DNA from: a virus
DNA: 64,000 nt
Virus record (IMG/VR): IMGVR_UViG_3300027747_002460
Reading direction: 5' to 3' (one strand)
In this document: piece after piece, positions 2,963 through 60,844 of the stretch
Layout: each line of letters starts with the position of its first letter
Numbering within the stretch: position 1 is the stretch's first letter
Translations under genes and position numbers: made by a program
The notes under the pieces: generated by a model
What the model saw: the letters and a program-made list of their open reading frames with translations, nothing else
What the model was told of the DNA's origin: nothing
The model's database searches: none

Positions 2963-2999
2963 GACACTAGCATATCAAAAAAACGCAGACTGTCAACCG

Positions 3000-3827
3000 T
3001 TAAGGCAGCTGTCCAGGCAACGCTGTGATGTAGACCACACCATCCATCTCATAGACAAACGCACGTATTGGATCTGGCCAGTACGGTACTTCCAGTGTTT
3101 CGATCATGCCACCCATCTCGCGGGCACGCATGAGATCGATCTGTCGAGGATGGGGTATGAACATGATGTTCTGCCCCTGCATCACAAAGTTTAGCACTTC
3201 TCGGGGAGGTTCTACGCCAATCACGAACCAAGGATTGCTTTGGTGCCATCTGGGGTGTGGTTCCCAGCCACCCCGCTGCATAGCAAACTCTCTGGCACGG
3301 CGTGGTTCCTCGTGCCACTGCTGATAGGCACGTTGGTCACGATCGTTGAAATTGCCTCCGCCCCTGCTCCAGTCACCTCGGGGCTGCTCTCTGGGTTGGC
3401 TGTTGAAGTTGCCGCCACCACGTCCCCAGTCACCGCGAGGTTGTTCGCGCTGTTGGTAGTGGGGCTGTTCCTGTTGCCTCTGCTGTGCCTGCGGCTGTTG
3501 CTGCTGTTGGCGCTTGCGCATCTCTTGGTCCATGCGCCACTGGTCCTGGCTGTGTTGCATGGTCTGCTGCTGTCGGCTCTGTCCTTGGGCTTGGTCGTTG
3601 AAGTTGCCGGCATGAGCTGCGGTGATCCCAGCACCTGCTAGTGCTGCTGCCAGTGCTCCTGTGCGGATCCACTTCTTGATCTTGCCCATGTCAAGCTCTC
3701 GCAGCTGCGCCCATTCCTCGAGATCTTGGTGCATGTTGTTTAGGACCATGTGCGCTAGCTCGCGCTGATCATCCTCGCTGAGGTTGTTGAATTCCAGTAG
3801 GTCTAGGTGTTCTCTGATCGTGCTCAT
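3000..3827 (-). CDS. Gln/Arg/Gly-rich low-complexity protein with hydrophobic segment, possible virion-internal protein
   Basis: TAAATA box at 3833-3838; Glu-rich leader, GALAAALAGAGITAAHA segment, QPRGDWxRGGGNFN repeated twice. Confidence 0.6.
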   Translation of the reverse strand: MSTIREHLDLLEFNNLSEDDQRELAHMVLNNMHQDLEEWAQLRELDMGKIKKWIRTGALAAALAGAGITAAHAGNFNDQAQGQSRQQQTMQHSQDQWRMDQEMRKRQQQQQPQAQQRQQEQPHYQQREQPRGDWGRGGGNFNSQPREQPRGDWSRGGGNFNDRDQRAYQQWHEEPRRAREFAMQRGGWEPHPRWHQSNPWFVIGVEPPREVLNFVMQGQNIMFIPHPRQIDLMRAREMGGMIETLEVPYWPDPIRAFVYEMDGVVYITALPGQLP

Positions 3828-4571: not shown

Positions 4572-5153
4572 TCACTCATCTTCGTCCAAGAGATCGTCGT
4601 CCGAATCCGGGTCATGTGTGGCAGCATAATGCGGATCATCATACATCTTGTAGAGGCTTTCGTTTGGACTGATGATGCGATACATGTTTGGCTTGTCCAC
4701 GCTGAGCTTGATCATGGTCATGTCTGTCTCACGCAGGATATCAGTTACCCAGTATGCGCTACCACAACCGCCCGAGAACCGCTTGATAGGCCCATGCTTG
4801 ATGCCCAAACTGTCCAACAGTTCCTTCCATTGGGTTTGATAATAGAGCTGCAGCCTGGTAACACCGCGCTCTTGATTGCGGAGGCGTATCTCATCGGCTC
4901 TGGTGAGATGGGTGATCGTGGCAACATTATCCTCGCCGATGTTCACGAGGCATTCTCGGAACTTGATGGCACCCTTGGTGCGAACGTTGTCTGGAGTTTC
5001 TTTGGTGGACCAAGCAATGTTGGCTTCTACATGCTCAACATAGTAAGTCTGGCCCTTGGCCATCACTATCCACATGGGGATAGTGGGATCTGTTAAATGA
5101 TGTTTATTAAAGTGAAATACTGCTTCTTTACATGCTAGTTCAACCTAAGCCAT
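4572..5153 (-). CDS. Hypothetical protein with in-frame TAG at codon 3 (candidate amber read-through gene)
   Basis: AAGGAG (5166-5161), 7 nt, then ATG GCT TAG GTT GAA CTA GCA TGT AAA..., in frame with the ORF-track start at 5075, which has no RBS. Acidic C-terminus. Confidence 0.6.
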
Positions 5154-5179
5154 TGTCATACTCCTTGTTGTGGTTAGAT

Positions 5180-5201
5180 GGGCTAGGACAGTGCCTAGCC
5201 C
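5180..5201. other. 8-bp stem hairpin without U-tract (RNA processing or stability element?)
   Basis: GGGCTAGG-acagtg-CCTAGCCC between the 5212 gene and the RBS at 5161-5166. Confidence 0.5.
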
Positions 5202-5211
5202 TGTGTACTTA

Positions 5212-5595
5212 TTATATGCTCTTGTATGTGCTGCTCATAGCAGCGAACTGCTGCTTCCATTGCCATTCGTCCAGCACCAGCTGGTTAAAGGTGGTGGCAT
5301 CTACTTCGATGGTTTCTTCCACGCTGAGCTCCAGCATGCGGATGGCCCTGGTATAGCTGTCAGCAAAACTCACTGGCACCTGCGGCGTGGATCGGATCTT
5401 GGCAATCTCAGCCACATCTCCGGTCTGGGCCAAGCGCAGGTTTTCCTGGGCTATCTTGAGCACGCCCTTGGTGAAATCAATCACGCTTTCCTTGTAGTCC
5501 GCGATGTGCTTTTCCTTGTTAGCCCTGACGATGTCCAATAGGTCGTCTCGGTTTACCTTTACGTCTCTCATGGCATTGTTCCTTTGGTCTCGCAT
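5212..5595 (-). CDS. Hypothetical phage protein
   Basis: Clean 127-aa ORF directly downstream of the tRNA pair. Confidence 0.7.
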   Translation of the reverse strand: MRDQRNNAMRDVKVNRDDLLDIVRANKEKHIADYKESVIDFTKGVLKIAQENLRLAQTGDVAEIAKIRSTPQVPVSFADSYTRAIRMLELSVEETIEVDATTFNQLVLDEWQWKQQFAAMSSTYKSI

Positions 5596-5611
5596 GCCTA
5601 GTCTCGCAAAA

Positions 5612-5683
5612 TGGTGCCCTGTATGGGAGTCGAACCCATCTCTGCTGATTTAGAGTCAGCTTCCCTCCCGGAGGGAACAGAGC
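5612..5683 (-). tRNA. tRNA with CUA anticodon (amber suppressor), 72 nt, shortened D arm
   Basis: GCTCTGT T CCCT CCGGG AGGG AA GCTGA CTCTAAA TCAGC AGAG ATGGG TTCGACT CCCAT ACAGGGC A CCA: 7-bp acceptor, canonical T loop, encoded CCA. Confidence 0.85.
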
Positions 5684-5684
5684 G

Positions 5685-5776
5685 TGGTAGGGGTGGAGGG
5701 ATTCGAACCCCCTCGAGAACGGTAATCTGCCGCTAGAAGGTTTATAAAACCTCCCTGTGTACCAACACCCACCCCC
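5685..5776 (-). tRNA. tRNA with UAU anticodon (reads AUA), long variable arm, minimal D loop, 92 nt
   Basis: Acceptor GGGGGTG/CACCCCT, A73, CCA; D arm GTGT-TGGT-ACAC; anticodon arm GAGGT-TTTATAA-ACCTT; V arm AGCGG-CAGATTA-CCGTT; T loop TTCGAAT. Confidence 0.8.
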
Positions 5777-5839: not shown

Positions 5840-6544
5840 TCACTTGCGATCACCCATCAGTTGCAGCAGATTAATGAAGATGTTGATAAAGTCCATGTAG
5901 AGGTTCAGTGCCCCCATGATTCCAGCTTTATCTCGATCATCACCTTCAACAGCATAGTAGGTTTCCTTGATCTGCTGCATGTCGTATGCAGTGAATCCCA
6001 CGAAGATAAGCACACCGATGGCACTGCAGGCCATCTGCAGAGCACTGCTCTGTAGGAATAGGTTTACCAAGCCCGCGATGATCAGACCAAACAGGCCCAT
6101 CATCAGGAACGATCCCATGTTGCTGAGATCACGGCGTGTGGTGTATCCCCATAGCGCAGTGCTACCAAAAGTAGCAGCGCTGATGAAGAACACCTGTGCG
6201 ATGCTACCCAGCTTGAATATCAAGAATATAGGACTGAGGCTTATGCCCATCAAACCAGCATATACATATAACAACGTCCTGGCAGTGCTCGGAGAAAGGC
6301 TGTTGATCATGAATCCCAGGAAGATTGCCATACCAACTGGAGCCAACATAAAGAACCATTTTTGCGGTCCACCAAAGAATGACACCATCAGTTCTGGGCT
6401 GTTGCCTAACATGAATGCAGTGAGTCCGCTGATTGCCAGCGCTATTGTCATGTAATTGAATACCTGTAACAGATAGGCTCGCAGTCCTAGATCATAATCG
6501 GCATGCGTAGGTGATTGTGATTGTGCTGCTGTCCACGGATCCAT
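5840..6544 (-). CDS. yccA: Bax inhibitor-1/YccA family membrane protein
   Basis: YDLGLRAYLLQVFNYM, AYDMQQIK, GALNLYMDFINIFINLLQL; about 7 hydrophobic segments. Confidence 0.9.
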   Translation of the reverse strand: MDPWTAAQSQSPTHADYDLGLRAYLLQVFNYMTIALAISGLTAFMLGNSPELMVSFFGGPQKWFFMLAPVGMAIFLGFMINSLSPSTARTLLYVYAGLMGISLSPIFLIFKLGSIAQVFFISAATFGSTALWGYTTRRDLSNMGSFLMMGLFGLIIAGLVNLFLQSSALQMACSAIGVLIFVGFTAYDMQQIKETYYAVEGDDRDKAGIMGALNLYMDFINIFINLLQLMGDRK

Positions 6545-6580: not shown

Positions 6581-6656
6581 TGGTGGGCCCTCCCAGATTC
6601 GAACTGGGGACCAGACCGTTATGAGCGGCCGGCTCTAACCGCTGAGCTAAAGGCCC
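6581..6656 (-). tRNA. tRNA-Ile2 (CAU, lysidine type)
   Basis: GGGCCTTTAGCTCAGCGGTTAGAGCCGGCCGCTCATAACGGTCTGGTCCCCAGTTCGAATCTGGGAGGGCCCACCA: canonical cloverleaf with a G1-C72 pair and no initiator features, resembling alphaproteobacterial Ile2. Confidence 0.85.
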
Positions 6657-44196: not shown

Positions 44197-44463
44197 CTAG
44201 GCCCAATGCAGCCAACAGGTCATGGCTGCCACATTATCTTCCAGCAGCACATCCAGCATGTACATGCCCTTTTCCACGCCCAAGGGCTTGACCCTGAACT
44301 TGCCGCCTCGGTAACCTGCCACGCCCACGCCCATGGTACCATCCCAGTGATAGTGCCCACCGTGCTCTTGGTGCAGCCATTCTATGACTTCTGGGATCAC
44401 TGTATAGTCCATGGGTCCGAGGCGAACGATGGGACCACCTGACCACCTGGCAAAATCAGGCAC
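44197..44463 (-). CDS. Small protein, W-terminal family
   Basis: VIEWL core, ends AAMTCWLHWA. Confidence 0.55.
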   Translation of the reverse strand: MPDFARWSGGPIVRLGPMDYTVIPEVIEWLHQEHGGHYHWDGTMGVGVAGYRGGKFRVKPLGVEKGMYMLDVLLEDNVAAMTCWLHWA

Positions 44464-59511: not shown

Positions 59512-60285
59512 ATGAACAGAAGAATAAACGAGCATCTGGTGAAAAATCTCAAGGCCACGTTCAATTTAGAGCGCTGGCGCGAGATAAACGAGCAAATCAG
59601 CAGAGAAACGCTGCTGGAGAGACTGCCATGGACCAGCAAGCGCAGAGAGAAGTTCACTCAGATGCTAGCCAGCACCTTTGGTGTCGCTGCTGAGCTGCGC
59701 GGCACGGTGGCAGAACTGACCAACAGCCTGGATCAAGCCTACTGTGAGCATTTCTGGCAGAAAGTTTGGCAGCCGCGTACCGAGAATTACACCTATACTG
59801 GTTGGCAGGCAGTTGATGAGATACTGAGCAGGAATCCAAGGTCAGTGTTGGACGTTGGCTGCGGTTATAACCAGTTCAAGACCAAGATACCAAACCTAGT
59901 CGGCATAGACAAGTACAACCCTGCTGCTGACTACATGGTCGACATCTTGGACTTTGATGTCGACCCTGAAAGCTATGATGCTGTCATGGTATTTGGTAGC
60001 ATAAACTTTGGCGACTATGAGGATGTGGCCTGTAGGTTTGCCAAGGTCTTTGAGCTCACTGCGCCTGGTGGCAGGATATATGTACGAGCCAATCCCGGCT
60101 ACAGCCACCCCACTGGCCCATGGATAGACATATTTGCCTGGGACTTTGCCACAGCTCATCGCGTGGCCAAGGACAACAATGCCACTATGTTGACGTTCAA
60201 GCATGACCAAGATCAGCCACAGGATAGCAGCGTTGATCCGGGTCACGGCCAAGGTAATCGTCTTTATTTTGTCTATGAGAAGTGA
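59512..60285 (+). CDS. Class I SAM-dependent methyltransferase
   Basis: VLDVGCGYN, GID, FGSINFG. Confidence 0.8.
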   Translation: MNRRINEHLVKNLKATFNLERWREINEQISRETLLERLPWTSKRREKFTQMLASTFGVAAELRGTVAELTNSLDQAYCEHFWQKVWQPRTENYTYTGWQAVDEILSRNPRSVLDVGCGYNQFKTKIPNLVGIDKYNPAADYMVDILDFDVDPESYDAVMVFGSINFGDYEDVACRFAKVFELTAPGGRIYVRANPGYSHPTGPWIDIFAWDFATAHRVAKDNNATMLTFKHDQDQPQDSSVDPGHGQGNRLYFVYEK

Positions 60286-60612
60286 GTGATGGGTTTATTC
60301 TGTTTCCAAGGAAACCCATCGAAAACTCATTGAGGTTACGCCGCTAGGCGAATCTCAGATGCAACGAAGTTGTCGTTTGCAGTTAGAAAATTGGACAATC
60401 CGGTTACCCGGAGGCGTGCCTAACCTGCTGACTCCTGCTACCCTTTACACGTCTGTCGATCCTATTTCGCCCCCATCAAAGATACACACCTAAAGCTAGA
60501 ATGCCTCATAGGGTCACGAAGCAACTAGGGACTTCAACCCTCGCATGTATCTATGGTGGAGGCGCCGGGTACCGCCCCCGGGTCCAGACCGCTTATTACG
60601 ATGCTATCAACA
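60286..60612 (-). ncRNA. ssrA: Circularly permuted (two-piece) tmRNA; tag ANDNFVASEIRLAA
   Basis: Order on the minus strand: T arm CCGGG-GGCGGTA-CCCGG plus CGCCTCC-A-CCA (ends 60554), 79-nt intervening segment, 5' strand GGGGGCG (60474) giving G3-U70, tag ORF 60380-60336. The outer ends are approximate. Confidence 0.92.
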
Positions 60613-60621
60613 TCAACTAGG

Positions 60622-60629
60622 TATTTATA
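60622..60629 (-). promoter_or_regulatory. T4-type late promoter box upstream of the tmRNA
   Basis: Exact TATAAATA. Confidence 0.55.
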
Positions 60630-60844
60630 GCAGGTTTTTTGTACAAGTCAACCCTGGCCCACTCGCAGCTGCACTTAACATCGCAGAATCCCAGATTGCG
60701 CTGGGCGTTGTGGTACAGTGGTGCCCAATAGCTCCACTGCCGGTCACCACCCTGGAACTGGTGCAGTATGGCTTCGGTTGGCTTACCGCAATGGCTGCAG
60801 GGCTGTCCCTGGATCCAGGTCATAGTTGGAGTTGGCTGCATCTA

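What the first reader, a model, noticed from the sequence alone, without database searches (positions are those of the whole stretch)
4572..5683. Amber suppressor tRNA upstream of a gene gated by TAG at codon 3
Seen: AAGGAG at 5166-5161, 7 nt before ATG 5153, which reads ATG GCT TAG GTT GAA CTA GCA TGT AAA GAA GCA GTA TTT CAC... and continues in frame into the 167-aa ORF. The fallback ATG at 5075 has no RBS. About 460 nt upstream on the same strand lies a tRNA with anticodon CUA. One early promoter (6709-6686) could transcribe tRNA-Ile2, yccA, tRNA(UAU), tRNA(CUA), the 5212 gene and this gene; the only hairpin between them has no U-tract. Elsewhere TAG acts as a normal stop (e.g. 23192, 43520, 53241), so this is not genome-wide recoding. 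Inference: a suppressor-dependent switch in which the full protein is made only once the phage tRNA accumulates. CAG-to-TAG is a single transition, so Gln may be ancestral.
Basis: partly seen in the sequence, partly recalled or inferred. Interest (0 to 1): 0.85.

Follow-up and report, generated by a model that had tools for sequence, protein, structure and literature searches.

The report
Amber-gated phage gene with own tRNA
A T4-like phage that otherwise uses the normal genetic code keeps a UAG stop as the third codon of one conserved gene, about 460 nt downstream of its own UAG-reading tRNA; dozens of divergent phages keep the same pairing, so it looks like a natural one-codon translational lock and key, though nothing has been tested at the bench.

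Summary
On the minus strand AAGGAG (5166-5161) lies 7 nt before ATG 5153. The reading is ATG GCT TAG (5147-5145), then an open frame into the ORF ending at 4572. A 72-nt tRNA(CUA) sits at 5683-5612.

It is not a nonsense allele or an assembly error. Of 59 distinct homologous gene starts, 55 carry an in-frame TAG at codon 3, 4 or 5. A CUA tRNA lies upstream on the same strand in 71 of 76 TAG-bearing loci (median 317 nt). The codons just after TAG evolve like coding sequence. The tRNA has an invariant U-CUA-A loop and compensatory changes in 16 of 18 stem pairs.

The phage is not recoded genome-wide. TAG ends ordinary genes such as RimK, and no other gated gene lies in the 64 kb.

The Q in database homologues is TAG translated by code 15, and TAG-less relatives start with ATG at that position.

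A cultured phage, Rhizobium phage RHph_I1_18, carries an unannotated short version next to its annotated tRNA(cta).

The gated protein has no recognised family. The inserted amino acid and the actual read-through are untested.

This scan has noted the same pairing before on other phage DNA. I found no published description.

The parts
5612..5683 (-). tRNA with anticodon CUA (amber suppressor type), 72 nt, compact D arm, encoded CCA end
   Evidence: ARAGORN. Rfam RF00005 scores 39.5 bits with CUA in the canonical anticodon register. It aligns with 46 other distinct CUA tRNAs from related loci. U33-CUA-A37 is invariant, G1:C72 holds in 47/47, and 16 of 18 pairs show compensatory changes.
5212..5571 (-). 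119-aa gene of unknown function (phrog_34511), directly downstream of the tRNA. The ORF could also start at 5595.
   Evidence: PHROG hit at E 1.9e-27. Homologues lie 10-20 nt after the CUA tRNA in L012, L023/27, L040, L063 and L066/70. No Pfam, NCBIfam or PADLOC match.
5178..5201 (-). GC-rich hairpin between the two genes, without a U-tract
   Evidence: Sequence and RNA fold. The terminator scan does not call it.
5161..5166 (-). Shine-Dalgarno AAGGAG, 7 nt before the ATG
   Evidence: Direct reading. An SD-like motif stands before the leader ATG in nearly all related loci.
5148..5153 (-). Two-codon leader ATG GCT
   Evidence: Direct reading. In relatives the leader is ATG plus 1-3 sense codons, mostly Ser or Ala codons.
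5145..5147 (-). In-frame TAG at codon 3 (the gate), followed by G
   Evidence: Direct reading. TAG is at codon 3 in 47, codon 4 in 4 and codon 5 in 4 of 55 distinct TAG-bearing starts. The next base is always a purine (A 49, G 6).
4572..5144 (-). Gated ORF: 190 codons after the TAG plus the stop. It has a beta-rich N-domain (about 4869-5144), a ferredoxin-like C-domain and an acidic tail.
   Evidence: 495 homologous protein clusters. Invariant residues begin two codons after the TAG, well before Met-27. AlphaFold models have pLDDT 84 (whole protein) and 93 (N-domain). Fold searches give no informative match.
5685..5776 (-). Context: 92-nt tRNA(UAU) with a long variable arm, 1 nt from the CUA tRNA
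   Evidence: ARAGORN. Its best Rfam match is tRNA-Sec at 38.1 bits, below that family's threshold of 47.
5840..6544 (-). Context: Bax1-I/YccA-like membrane protein gene upstream of the tRNAs
   Evidence: Pfam PF01027, E 2e-58. A homologue lies between the CUA tRNA and the gated gene in L001/L011 and L017.

Best explanation
This is a suppressor-tRNA-dependent translational gate.

Ribosomes start at ATG 5153 behind a good Shine-Dalgarno and meet UAG at codon 3. If release factor 1 wins, only a dipeptide is released, which costs little and leaves no truncated protein. If the phage's own tRNA(CUA), encoded 458 nt upstream on the same strand, decodes the UAG, the full 193-residue protein is made. 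Protein output should therefore follow the ratio of charged suppressor tRNA to RF1.

The tRNA lies upstream on the same strand in nearly all relatives, often only 25-50 nt away, so tRNA and mRNA probably come from one transcript. That would wire the pair as a feed-forward AND gate: the promoter makes the tRNA and the mRNA, and both are needed for protein.

Shown by sequence comparison: conservation of the TAG, its co-retention with the tRNA, protein-level selection on the codons right after the TAG, selection on the tRNA's structure and anticodon, and absence of genome-wide recoding.

Inferred: that the tRNA is expressed, charged and actually reads this codon; which amino acid it inserts; co-transcription; and the purpose (timer, sensor, or lock).

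The gated protein has no recognised family. Its weak OB-like N-domain, RRM/ACT-like C-domain and acidic tail suggest nucleic-acid or protein binding, but that is a guess.
For: (1) Window anatomy is exactly as described.

(2) 82 IMG/VR loci plus the window give 59 distinct gene starts, and 55 have an in-frame TAG at codon 3-5. The flanking codons vary (12 different codons before it, 6 after) while TAG stays. Independent collections agree: MAG contigs L090, L091, L092 and L094, and an ENA contig, L096, whose protein is 82% identical with the same ATG GCT TAG GTT.

(3) A CUA tRNA lies upstream on the same strand in 64 loci by default ARAGORN and in 7 more at a relaxed threshold, giving 71 of 76 TAG loci. 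Two of the other five lack upstream DNA. The distance is 25-3391 nt, median 317.

(4) Codons after the TAG show coding selection. E2, C5, V9 and FHFNK have little or no variation at codon positions 1-2, while position 3 varies at most of them (only slightly at E2). In the window no canonical start exists between the TAG and Met-27, so Met-27 initiation would delete these invariant residues.

(5) The tRNA is under selection: 47 distinct sequences, invariant U33-CUA-A37, and 16 of 18 pairs with compensatory changes.

(6) No genome-wide recoding. Coding density is equal under codes 11 and 15. TAG-separated same-frame ORFs are ordinary adjacent genes. RimK ends properly at TAG. The window has only one RBS-ATG-x-TAG gate on the coding strand.

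(7) The TAG-less forms are nested in TAG clades, needing at least 3 changes of state. In two of those lineages the gene just upstream (Pth2-like) carries the codon-3 TAG instead.

(8) The cultured Rhizobium phage RHph_I1_18 has an unannotated short homologue with TAG at codon 6, 11 nt before its annotated tRNA-Pyl(cta).
Against: Nothing is experimental. Expression, processing and aminoacylation of the tRNA are unknown, and so is read-through.

About 16% of the window's genes end in TAG. A strong suppressor would therefore extend many phage and host proteins, which argues for weak or transient suppression.

The purine after TAG fits known good suppression contexts, but it is confounded with the Ile/Val/Thr residue needed at that position.

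The relative with the most similar C-terminal part (L097, 92% identity there) carries an extra in-frame TAA at the Leu-17 codon. That copy cannot make the full protein even with amber suppression. It is either decaying or an error in a 1.2-kb contig.

Five loci keep the CUA tRNA although their copy of the gene has lost the TAG, so the tRNA must have other clients or roles.
Confidence: 0.75

Rival explanations
1. ATG-GCT-TAG is a two-codon mini-ORF. Ribosomes terminate at UAG and re-initiate at or just after it (AUU/AUC/AUA in most relatives) or further down, without any read-through. The nearby tRNA(CUA) serves other purposes.
For: TAG-less relatives place their ATG start exactly at the TAG position, so the mature protein does not need the M-x prefix. 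The codon after TAG is ATT/ATC/ATA in 46 of 55 distinct starts; from general knowledge, AUU can act as a weak bacterial start codon.
Against: In the window the next codon is GTT, and in other lineages it is GTA or ACT; none of these is a start codon. The window has no ATG, GTG or TTG before Met-27, which lies beyond the invariant FHFNK..HL.D motif. The model does not explain why the stop is always TAG rather than TAA or TGA, nor why a CUA tRNA is co-retained upstream in 71 of 76 loci.
Confidence: 0.08
2. The phage lineage is a TAG-recoded ('code 15') phage. The gene merely contains one of many sense TAGs, with the recoded part of the genome lying outside this window.
For: A suppressor tRNA is present. 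Public pipelines translated many homologues with TAG=Q. Recoded phages are known to keep early genes in the standard code (bioRxiv 10.1101/2021.08.26.457843), and this window is an early/replication region with topoisomerase II and NrdB.
Against: Coding density is about 0.9 under code 11 and no better under code 15, in the window and in about 70 distinct 5-12 kb loci. TAG terminates well-defined genes. Ordinary Gln codons (CAA, CAG) stand right before the TAG in several relatives while the TAG itself is never replaced by them, so it is the codon that is conserved, not a Gln residue. Late and structural regions of this genome were not available.
Confidence: 0.08
3. The CUA tRNA is an initiator-type tRNA and UAG itself is the start codon of the gene, as in engineered amber-initiator systems.
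For: ATG occupies exactly the TAG position in TAG-less relatives. Engineered initiator tRNA(CUA) systems that start at UAG exist (bioRxiv 10.1101/2024.07.29.605542, listed).
Against: All 47 distinct tRNAs have a paired G1:C72, whereas bacterial initiators have a 1x72 mismatch (established knowledge). The window tRNA's anticodon stem (GCUGA/UCAGC) lacks the three consecutive G:C pairs of initiators. An in-frame ATG with well-spaced SD is conserved 1-3 codons upstream of every TAG, which a UAG start would not require.
Confidence: 0.03
4. In this particular window the gene is a dead or dying nonsense allele, or an assembly error.
For: A close relative (L097) has an additional in-frame TAA in the N-terminal region, so decay does occur in this clade. 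Raw reads could not be inspected.
Against: The same TAG is present in 55 of 59 distinct relatives from many samples and assemblers. The window copy keeps every invariant residue of the N-terminal region.
Confidence: 0.02

Closest known systems
Stop-codon-recoded phages with phage-encoded suppressor tRNAs (TAG read as Gln, 'code 15': crAss-like, Lak, and the 'code change module' upstream of lysis genes; bioRxiv 10.1101/2021.08.26.457843, PMC9523058)
   Same: A phage-encoded tRNA(CUA) overrides UAG so that certain phage genes are translated in full. Recoding was proposed there as a way to regulate gene expression.
   Different: There, many genes (mostly late and lysis genes) hold many in-frame TAGs, and standard-code gene calling collapses. 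Here the code is standard. The window has a single TAG at codon 3 of one small conserved gene beside the tRNA. TAG also ends about 16% of ordinary genes, and the phages are environmental T4-like or jumbo types rather than gut phages.
prfB (RF2) autoregulation through an early in-frame UGA
   Same: An early in-frame stop codon makes output depend on the competition between termination and a recoding event, so the gene senses the state of the termination machinery (established knowledge).
   Different: prfB uses a +1 frameshift and its product is the factor that reads the stop. Here the frame is unchanged, the recoding agent is a dedicated tRNA, and the product has no release-factor domain.
Classical phage or host amber suppressor tRNAs (T4 psu1+, E. 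coli supE/supF) and programmed read-through (Qbeta A1 protein)
   Same: An elongator tRNA with a stop-reading anticodon, or a near-cognate tRNA, reads a stop codon in competition with a release factor (established knowledge; McClain 1970 is cited in PMC8386662).
   Different: Those suppressors are laboratory mutants rescuing nonsense alleles, and Qbeta read-through extends a protein at its natural end using host tRNA. Here a wild-type tRNA and a wild-type early TAG are co-conserved as a pair across a large phage family.
Engineered amber-suppressor-dependent phages (biocontainment, non-canonical amino-acid display; e.g. bioRxiv 10.1101/2024.07.29.605542, PMC10359598)
   Same: A gene is locked by an amber codon and unlocked only where the matching tRNA is supplied.
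   Different: Those systems are synthetic and the tRNA is supplied by the host strain. Here lock and key are natural and sit on the same phage genome.

Membership tests
Amber suppressor tRNA (elongator tRNA with anticodon CUA) | Cloverleaf maintained by selection | tested here: met
   Rfam tRNA model scores 39.5 bits against a threshold of 29. Across 47 distinct relatives, 16 of 18 consensus pairs show compensatory changes.
Amber suppressor tRNA (elongator tRNA with anticodon CUA) | Seven-nucleotide anticodon loop with U33, C34-U35-A36 and a purine at 37 | tested here: met
   The loop is CUCUAAA in the window. U-CUA-A is invariant in all 47 sequences.
Amber suppressor tRNA (elongator tRNA with anticodon CUA) | Is aminoacylated and inserts an amino acid at UAG in vivo | not testable with these tools
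   All 47 sequences encode a CCA end, but charging and the inserted residue are unknown. Similarity to other phage tRNAs gives no clear isotype.
Genome-wide TAG recoding (genetic code 15) | Many genes interrupted by in-frame TAG, and coding density clearly better under code 15 | tested here: not met
   Density is 0.93 under code 11 and 0.92 under code 15 in the window, with similar values in the loci. Candidate interrupted ORFs are ordinary adjacent genes.
Genome-wide TAG recoding (genetic code 15) | TAG not used as a genuine terminator | tested here: not met
   The RimK-like gene ends at TAG six residues after its Pfam domain, and a Metallophos gene also ends at TAG. About 17 of 108 minus-strand ORFs end in TAG.
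Pyrrolysine system (tRNA-Pyl) | PylRS and pylBCD genes present, and tRNA-Pyl-specific architecture | not tested
   ARAGORN's 'tRNA-Pyl' label follows from the CUA anticodon alone. Most relatives are ordinary 74-77-nt tRNAs with GG in the D loop and a GTTCGA T loop. No search for PylRS was made.
Initiator tRNA reading UAG as a start codon | Mismatch at positions 1:72 and three G:C pairs at the bottom of the anticodon stem | tested here: not met
   G1:C72 is paired in 47 of 47 sequences. The window's anticodon stem is GCUGA/UCAGC.
prfB-type autoregulatory recoding | Early in-frame stop bypassed by a +1 frameshift, with a product that is the release factor reading that stop | tested here: not met
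   The downstream ORF is in the same frame as the ATG. The product has no Pfam match at all, so no RF-1 or PCRF domain.

The most novel reading that the evidence does not exclude
The tRNA(CUA), the small gene that follows it and the amber-gated gene(s) form a self-contained translational circuit carried by a large group of standard-code T4-like and jumbo phages. In this reading the codon-3 UAG measures the balance between charged suppressor tRNA and RF1, or the integrity of phage tRNAs under host attack. The gated OB-like/RRM-like protein itself acts on the tRNA or the termination machinery, which would close a feedback loop.
Probability: 0.2. Interest if true: 0.9.

Novelty: new variant of a known kind. 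Interest (0 to 1): 0.75.

Why it matters
Phage suppressor tRNAs have so far been read either as laboratory curiosities or as tools for wholesale stop-codon recoding. Here the same tool is used at minimal scale. One stop codon sits at the cheapest possible position (codon 3) and locks one conserved gene, and the key lies just upstream on the same strand. The pair has been kept through deep divergence (protein identity down to about 46%).

If read-through is confirmed, this would be a natural regulatory device based on tRNA-versus-release-factor competition. It would also explain why standard-code environmental phages carry 'tRNA-Pyl/Sup(CTA)' genes.

There is a practical consequence for annotation. 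These genes are systematically mis-annotated: truncated to an internal Met, left uncalled as in Rhizobium phage RHph_I1_18, or silently translated with code 15.

The cultured rhizobiophage makes the question directly testable at the bench.

Tried and rejected
- **Gln at codon 3 in homologues.** The alignment first seemed to show M-[AS]-Q. A look-up then showed that the Q is TAG translated with code 15, so it says nothing about Gln.
- **Other in-frame TAGs in the window.** A codon-usage screen gave three same-frame ORF pairs (TAGs at 44199, 21519, 12396). The two I translated (44199, 21519) are ordinary adjacent genes with their own starts; the third matches two separately called genes. Read-through extension lengths after TAG stops do not differ from those after TAA stops.
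- **Function of the gated protein.** There were no Pfam, PHROG, NCBIfam or PADLOC hits, and the PDB profile search reached only E >= 0.25. Foldseek against the PDB found nothing for the whole protein or the N-domain. VIA-align gave Z up to 7.0 for the C-domain, a generic ferredoxin-like ACT/RRM fold. For the N-domain it gave Z up to 3.7, with scattered OB-fold proteins. The ESM Atlas returned only viral hypothetical clusters.
- **tRNA isotype.** Similarity to 56 other phage tRNAs from the loci gave no consistent nearest isotype, and an alignment with the Lys(CUU) and Gln(CUG) tRNAs of RHph_I1_18 showed no clear parent.
- **More gated genes in related loci.** The apparent gates in front of GIY-YIG-like genes (L012, L048/50; TAA in L033-36) have a normal ATG a few codons downstream. 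They look like leader remnants next to homing-endonuclease insertions, so I did not count them.
- **Whole genome.** None is held for this window.
- **Bacterial genomes.** The scan found only small MAG contigs that look like binned phage DNA.
Full report
**1. What is in the window**

The minus strand reads, 5' to 3', as follows:
- tRNA(CAU) at 6656-6581.
- A Bax1-I/YccA-like gene at 6544-5840.
- A 92-nt tRNA(UAU) at 5776-5685.
- One nucleotide later, a 72-nt tRNA(CUA) at 5683-5612.
- A 119-127-aa gene at 5595/5571-5212.
- A GC hairpin without a U-tract, at about 5201-5178.
- AAGGAG at 5166-5161, then a 7-nt spacer.
- ATG 5153, GCT, TAG 5147-5145, and an uninterrupted frame down to the stop at 4572.

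ATG 5075 is in frame and has no Shine-Dalgarno. No ATG, GTG or TTG lies between the TAG and that Met.

Rfam's tRNA model accepts the CUA tRNA at 39.5 bits (threshold 29), with CUA in the canonical register.

The window is the early/replication region of a T4-like phage. It holds the topoisomerase II large and medium subunits and NrdB. Its only weak DNA matches are to rhizobiophage and tRNA genes. No whole genome is held.

**2. The TAG is conserved, not accidental**

The protein family is large: 495 clusters at E <= 0.001. Most members are 180-200 aa and cover the 23 residues upstream of Met-27, and that stretch contains the most invariant motif of the family, FHFNK.HL.D...PMW.

I fetched DNA for 82 IMG/VR loci and read the gene starts. 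With the window they give 59 distinct starts. Fifty-five have an in-frame TAG preceded by an SD-like motif and ATG:
- codon 3 in 47,
- codon 4 in 4,
- codon 5 in 4.

The codon before the TAG varies (12 kinds) and so does the codon after it (6 kinds), but the TAG does not. CAA or CAG stands right before the TAG in several loci, so ordinary Gln codons are in use nearby, yet they never replace the TAG.

Independent collections agree. Four of six MAG contigs from GTDB carry the TAG. An ENA contig (L096) whose protein is 82% identical has the same ATG GCT TAG GTT, with many synonymous differences downstream and a 72-nt CUA tRNA upstream.

**3. The stretch after the TAG is translated**

In the 55 distinct sequences, codons 2 (E), 5 (C), 9 (V) and 10-14 (FHFNK) after the TAG have little or no variation at positions 1 and 2. 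Position 3 varies freely at most of them, though only slightly at codon 2. That is the signature of protein-level selection in this frame. Because the window has no canonical start codon there, translation has to come through the TAG from ATG 5153.

**4. The tRNA travels with the gate**

Default ARAGORN finds a CUA tRNA upstream on the same strand in 64 of 76 TAG-bearing loci. A relaxed threshold and inspection add L017, L019, L022, L038, L041, L046 and L073. That makes 71 of 76, and two of the remaining five have almost no upstream DNA.

After dereplication the distance is 25-3391 nt, with a median of 317.

The 47 distinct tRNA sequences share an invariant U33-CUA-A37, G1:C72 and an encoded CCA. 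Sixteen of 18 consensus pairs show compensatory changes. This is a functional tRNA lineage whose anticodon is under selection.

**5. Not genome-wide recoding**

- Coding density is about 0.9 under code 11 and no higher under code 15, in the window and in the loci.
- A codon-usage screen for TAG-interrupted ORFs in the window found only pairs of ordinary adjacent genes.
- The RimK-like gene ends at TAG six residues after its Pfam domain.
- About 17 of 108 minus-strand ORFs end in TAG.
- A scan for the RBS-ATG-(1-8 codons)-stop-long ORF pattern found only the 5153 case on the coding strand.

Late and structural genes lie outside the window, so recoding there cannot be excluded.

**6.

The Q at codon 3 in database homologues is not evidence for an ancestral Gln. 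A look-up showed that such a protein translates from its contig only 'with_TAG=Q'.

True TAG-less relatives (L015, which is the same as P0037; L023/27; L066/70; L077) have their ATG at or next to the TAG position.

On a maximum-likelihood tree of 60 distinct proteins, the four TAG-less rows need three changes of state and are nested in TAG-bearing clades. Within this sample, then, the TAG is the older state and has been lost several times.

In two of those lineages (L015, L077) the gene just upstream is a Pth2-like protein with the motif YCY.FIR.DLP, and it carries a TAG at its own codon 3. The window has no such gene.

**7. Other module members**

The small gene after the tRNA (phrog_34511) also follows the CUA tRNA by 10-20 nt in L012, L023/27, L040, L063 and L066/70. 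YccA-like and BPL_N-like neighbours recur in some relatives too.

**8. A cultured example**

Rhizobium phage RHph_I1_18 (MN988519) has an unannotated 83-codon version consisting of the N-domain only. It reads ATG AGT GAG TTC ATG TAG AAC GAA..., so the TAG is at codon 6. Its stop lies 11 nt before the tRNA annotated as tRNA-Pyl(cta).

The jumbo phages Atu_ph07 and Phosso carry the domain at the C-terminus of an annotated hypothetical protein, with no TAG evident in the annotation.

**9. The protein**

AlphaFold gives a confident model (pLDDT 84 for the whole protein, 93 for the N-domain) with three parts:
- a beta-rich N-domain,
- a beta-alpha-beta-beta-alpha-beta C-domain,
- a disordered acidic tail.

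The C-domain matches generic ACT/RRM-like ferredoxin folds (Z up to 7.0). The N-domain has no convincing solved match: the best Z is 3.7, against scattered OB-fold proteins, and Foldseek finds nothing. The Atlas returns only viral hypothetical clusters. No family library gives a hit. The function is unknown, and 'nucleic-acid binding' is only a guess from the shapes and the acidic tail.

**10. Mechanism**

The best-supported reading is competition at codon 3 between RF1 and the phage tRNA(CUA).
- Termination costs only a dipeptide.
- Decoding gives the full protein.
- Because the tRNA lies upstream on the same strand and often within tens of nucleotides, the pair would act as a feed-forward AND gate.

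All of this is inference from comparative sequence.

Rivals score low:
- **Mini-ORF with re-initiation.** It fails to explain the window's GTT after the TAG, the exclusive use of TAG, and the co-retained tRNA.
- **UAG initiation by an initiator-type tRNA.** It is contradicted by G1:C72 in all 47 tRNAs and by the conserved upstream in-frame ATG.
- **Genome-wide recoding.** It is contradicted within the DNA available.
- **Nonsense allele or assembly error.** It is contradicted by the conservation.

One caution: the relative with the most similar C-terminal part (L097) has an extra in-frame TAA at the Leu-17 codon, so individual copies can decay or be mis-assembled.

**11. Literature and earlier notes**

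Full-text searches found the recoded-phage literature. [quoted passage not shown] They also found engineered amber-locked phages. I found no description of a single conserved codon-3 amber gate beside a suppressor tRNA in standard-code phages.

This scan's own earlier notes report the same pairing on other phage DNA, both for this gene family and for the Pth2-like family. I treated them as leads and re-derived the evidence here. They are not independent confirmation.

**12. Verdict**

This is a new variant of a known kind: phage suppressor-tRNA recoding reduced to a one-codon lock. Interest is high because the device is simple, widespread, unannotated and testable in a cultured phage. The lack of any experimental evidence and of a function for the gated protein tempers that.

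Noticed in passing
window 5685-5776 (-): A 92-nt tRNA(UAU) with a long variable arm lies 1 nt from the CUA tRNA. Its best Rfam match is the tRNA-Sec model at 38.1 bits, below that family's threshold of 47. A standard tRNA(CAU) lies at 6581-6656.
   Followed up: partly
window 60245-60649 (-): ARAGORN calls a permuted (two-piece) tmRNA with tag peptide ANDNFVASEIRLAA. From general knowledge, this type is typical of alphaproteobacteria, which would fit a rhizobial-type host. A phage tmRNA next to a stop-codon suppressor may matter for ribosomes that read through to mRNA ends.
   Followed up: no
window 5212-5571 (-); L012 2507-2887, L023 5487-5867, L040 3578-3955, L063 3505-3885, L066 2014-2394: A ~120-aa gene of unknown function (phrog_34511) directly follows the CUA tRNA in the window and in five other lineages. 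It is a third recurrent member of the module.
   Followed up: partly
L087 (Rhizobium phage RHph_I1_18, MN988519) 2977-3314: A cultured phage has an unannotated N-domain-only homologue with TAG at codon 6. Its stop lies 11 nt before the tRNA annotated as tRNA-Pyl(cta). An endonuclease VII gene sits on the opposite strand just after the tRNA.
   Followed up: partly
L015 5349-5717 and L077 5625-5996: Where the gated gene has lost its TAG, the gene just upstream carries TAG at its own codon 3 behind RBS-ATG-x. That gene is Pth2-like, with the motif YCY.FIR.DLPIE.QIVQAAHS.
   Followed up: partly
L012 4470, L048 3119, L050 5313, L033-L036 (e.g. L033 1576): GIY-YIG-like (homing endonuclease type) genes are preceded by the same leader, ATG GCA TAG ATT GAA TAT (TAA in L033-36), but have a normal ATG 8-17 codons further on. 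These look like leader remnants beside endonuclease insertions.
   Followed up: partly
L097 1-120: In the relative whose C-terminal part is 92% identical, there is ATG TCG TAG plus an extra in-frame TAA at the Leu-17 codon, and invariant N-terminal residues are altered. It is either a decaying copy or an error in a 1.2-kb contig.
   Followed up: no
window 21519, 44199, 12396 (-): Three TAG-terminated genes (RimK-like, a 71-aa gene before a NUDIX gene, and an 85-aa gene) are followed in the same frame by the next gene with no intervening stop, so amber suppression would make fusion proteins. The frequency is no higher than after TAA stops.
   Followed up: yes
protein database entries P0005, P0009, P0053 and others: Public protein collections hold many members of this family translated with TAG=Q (code 15), or truncated to an internal GTG or ATG. 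The apparent conserved 'Gln-3' is an annotation artefact.
   Followed up: yes
alignment A5 (47 CUA tRNAs): In many of the 74-77-nt CUA tRNAs the pair closing the anticodon loop (31:39) is C-A or U-G, and RNAalifold supports only 3 anticodon-stem pairs. The window's clade (window, L001, L002, L016, L017, L047, L096) instead has a compact 72-nt form with a short D arm.
   Followed up: no
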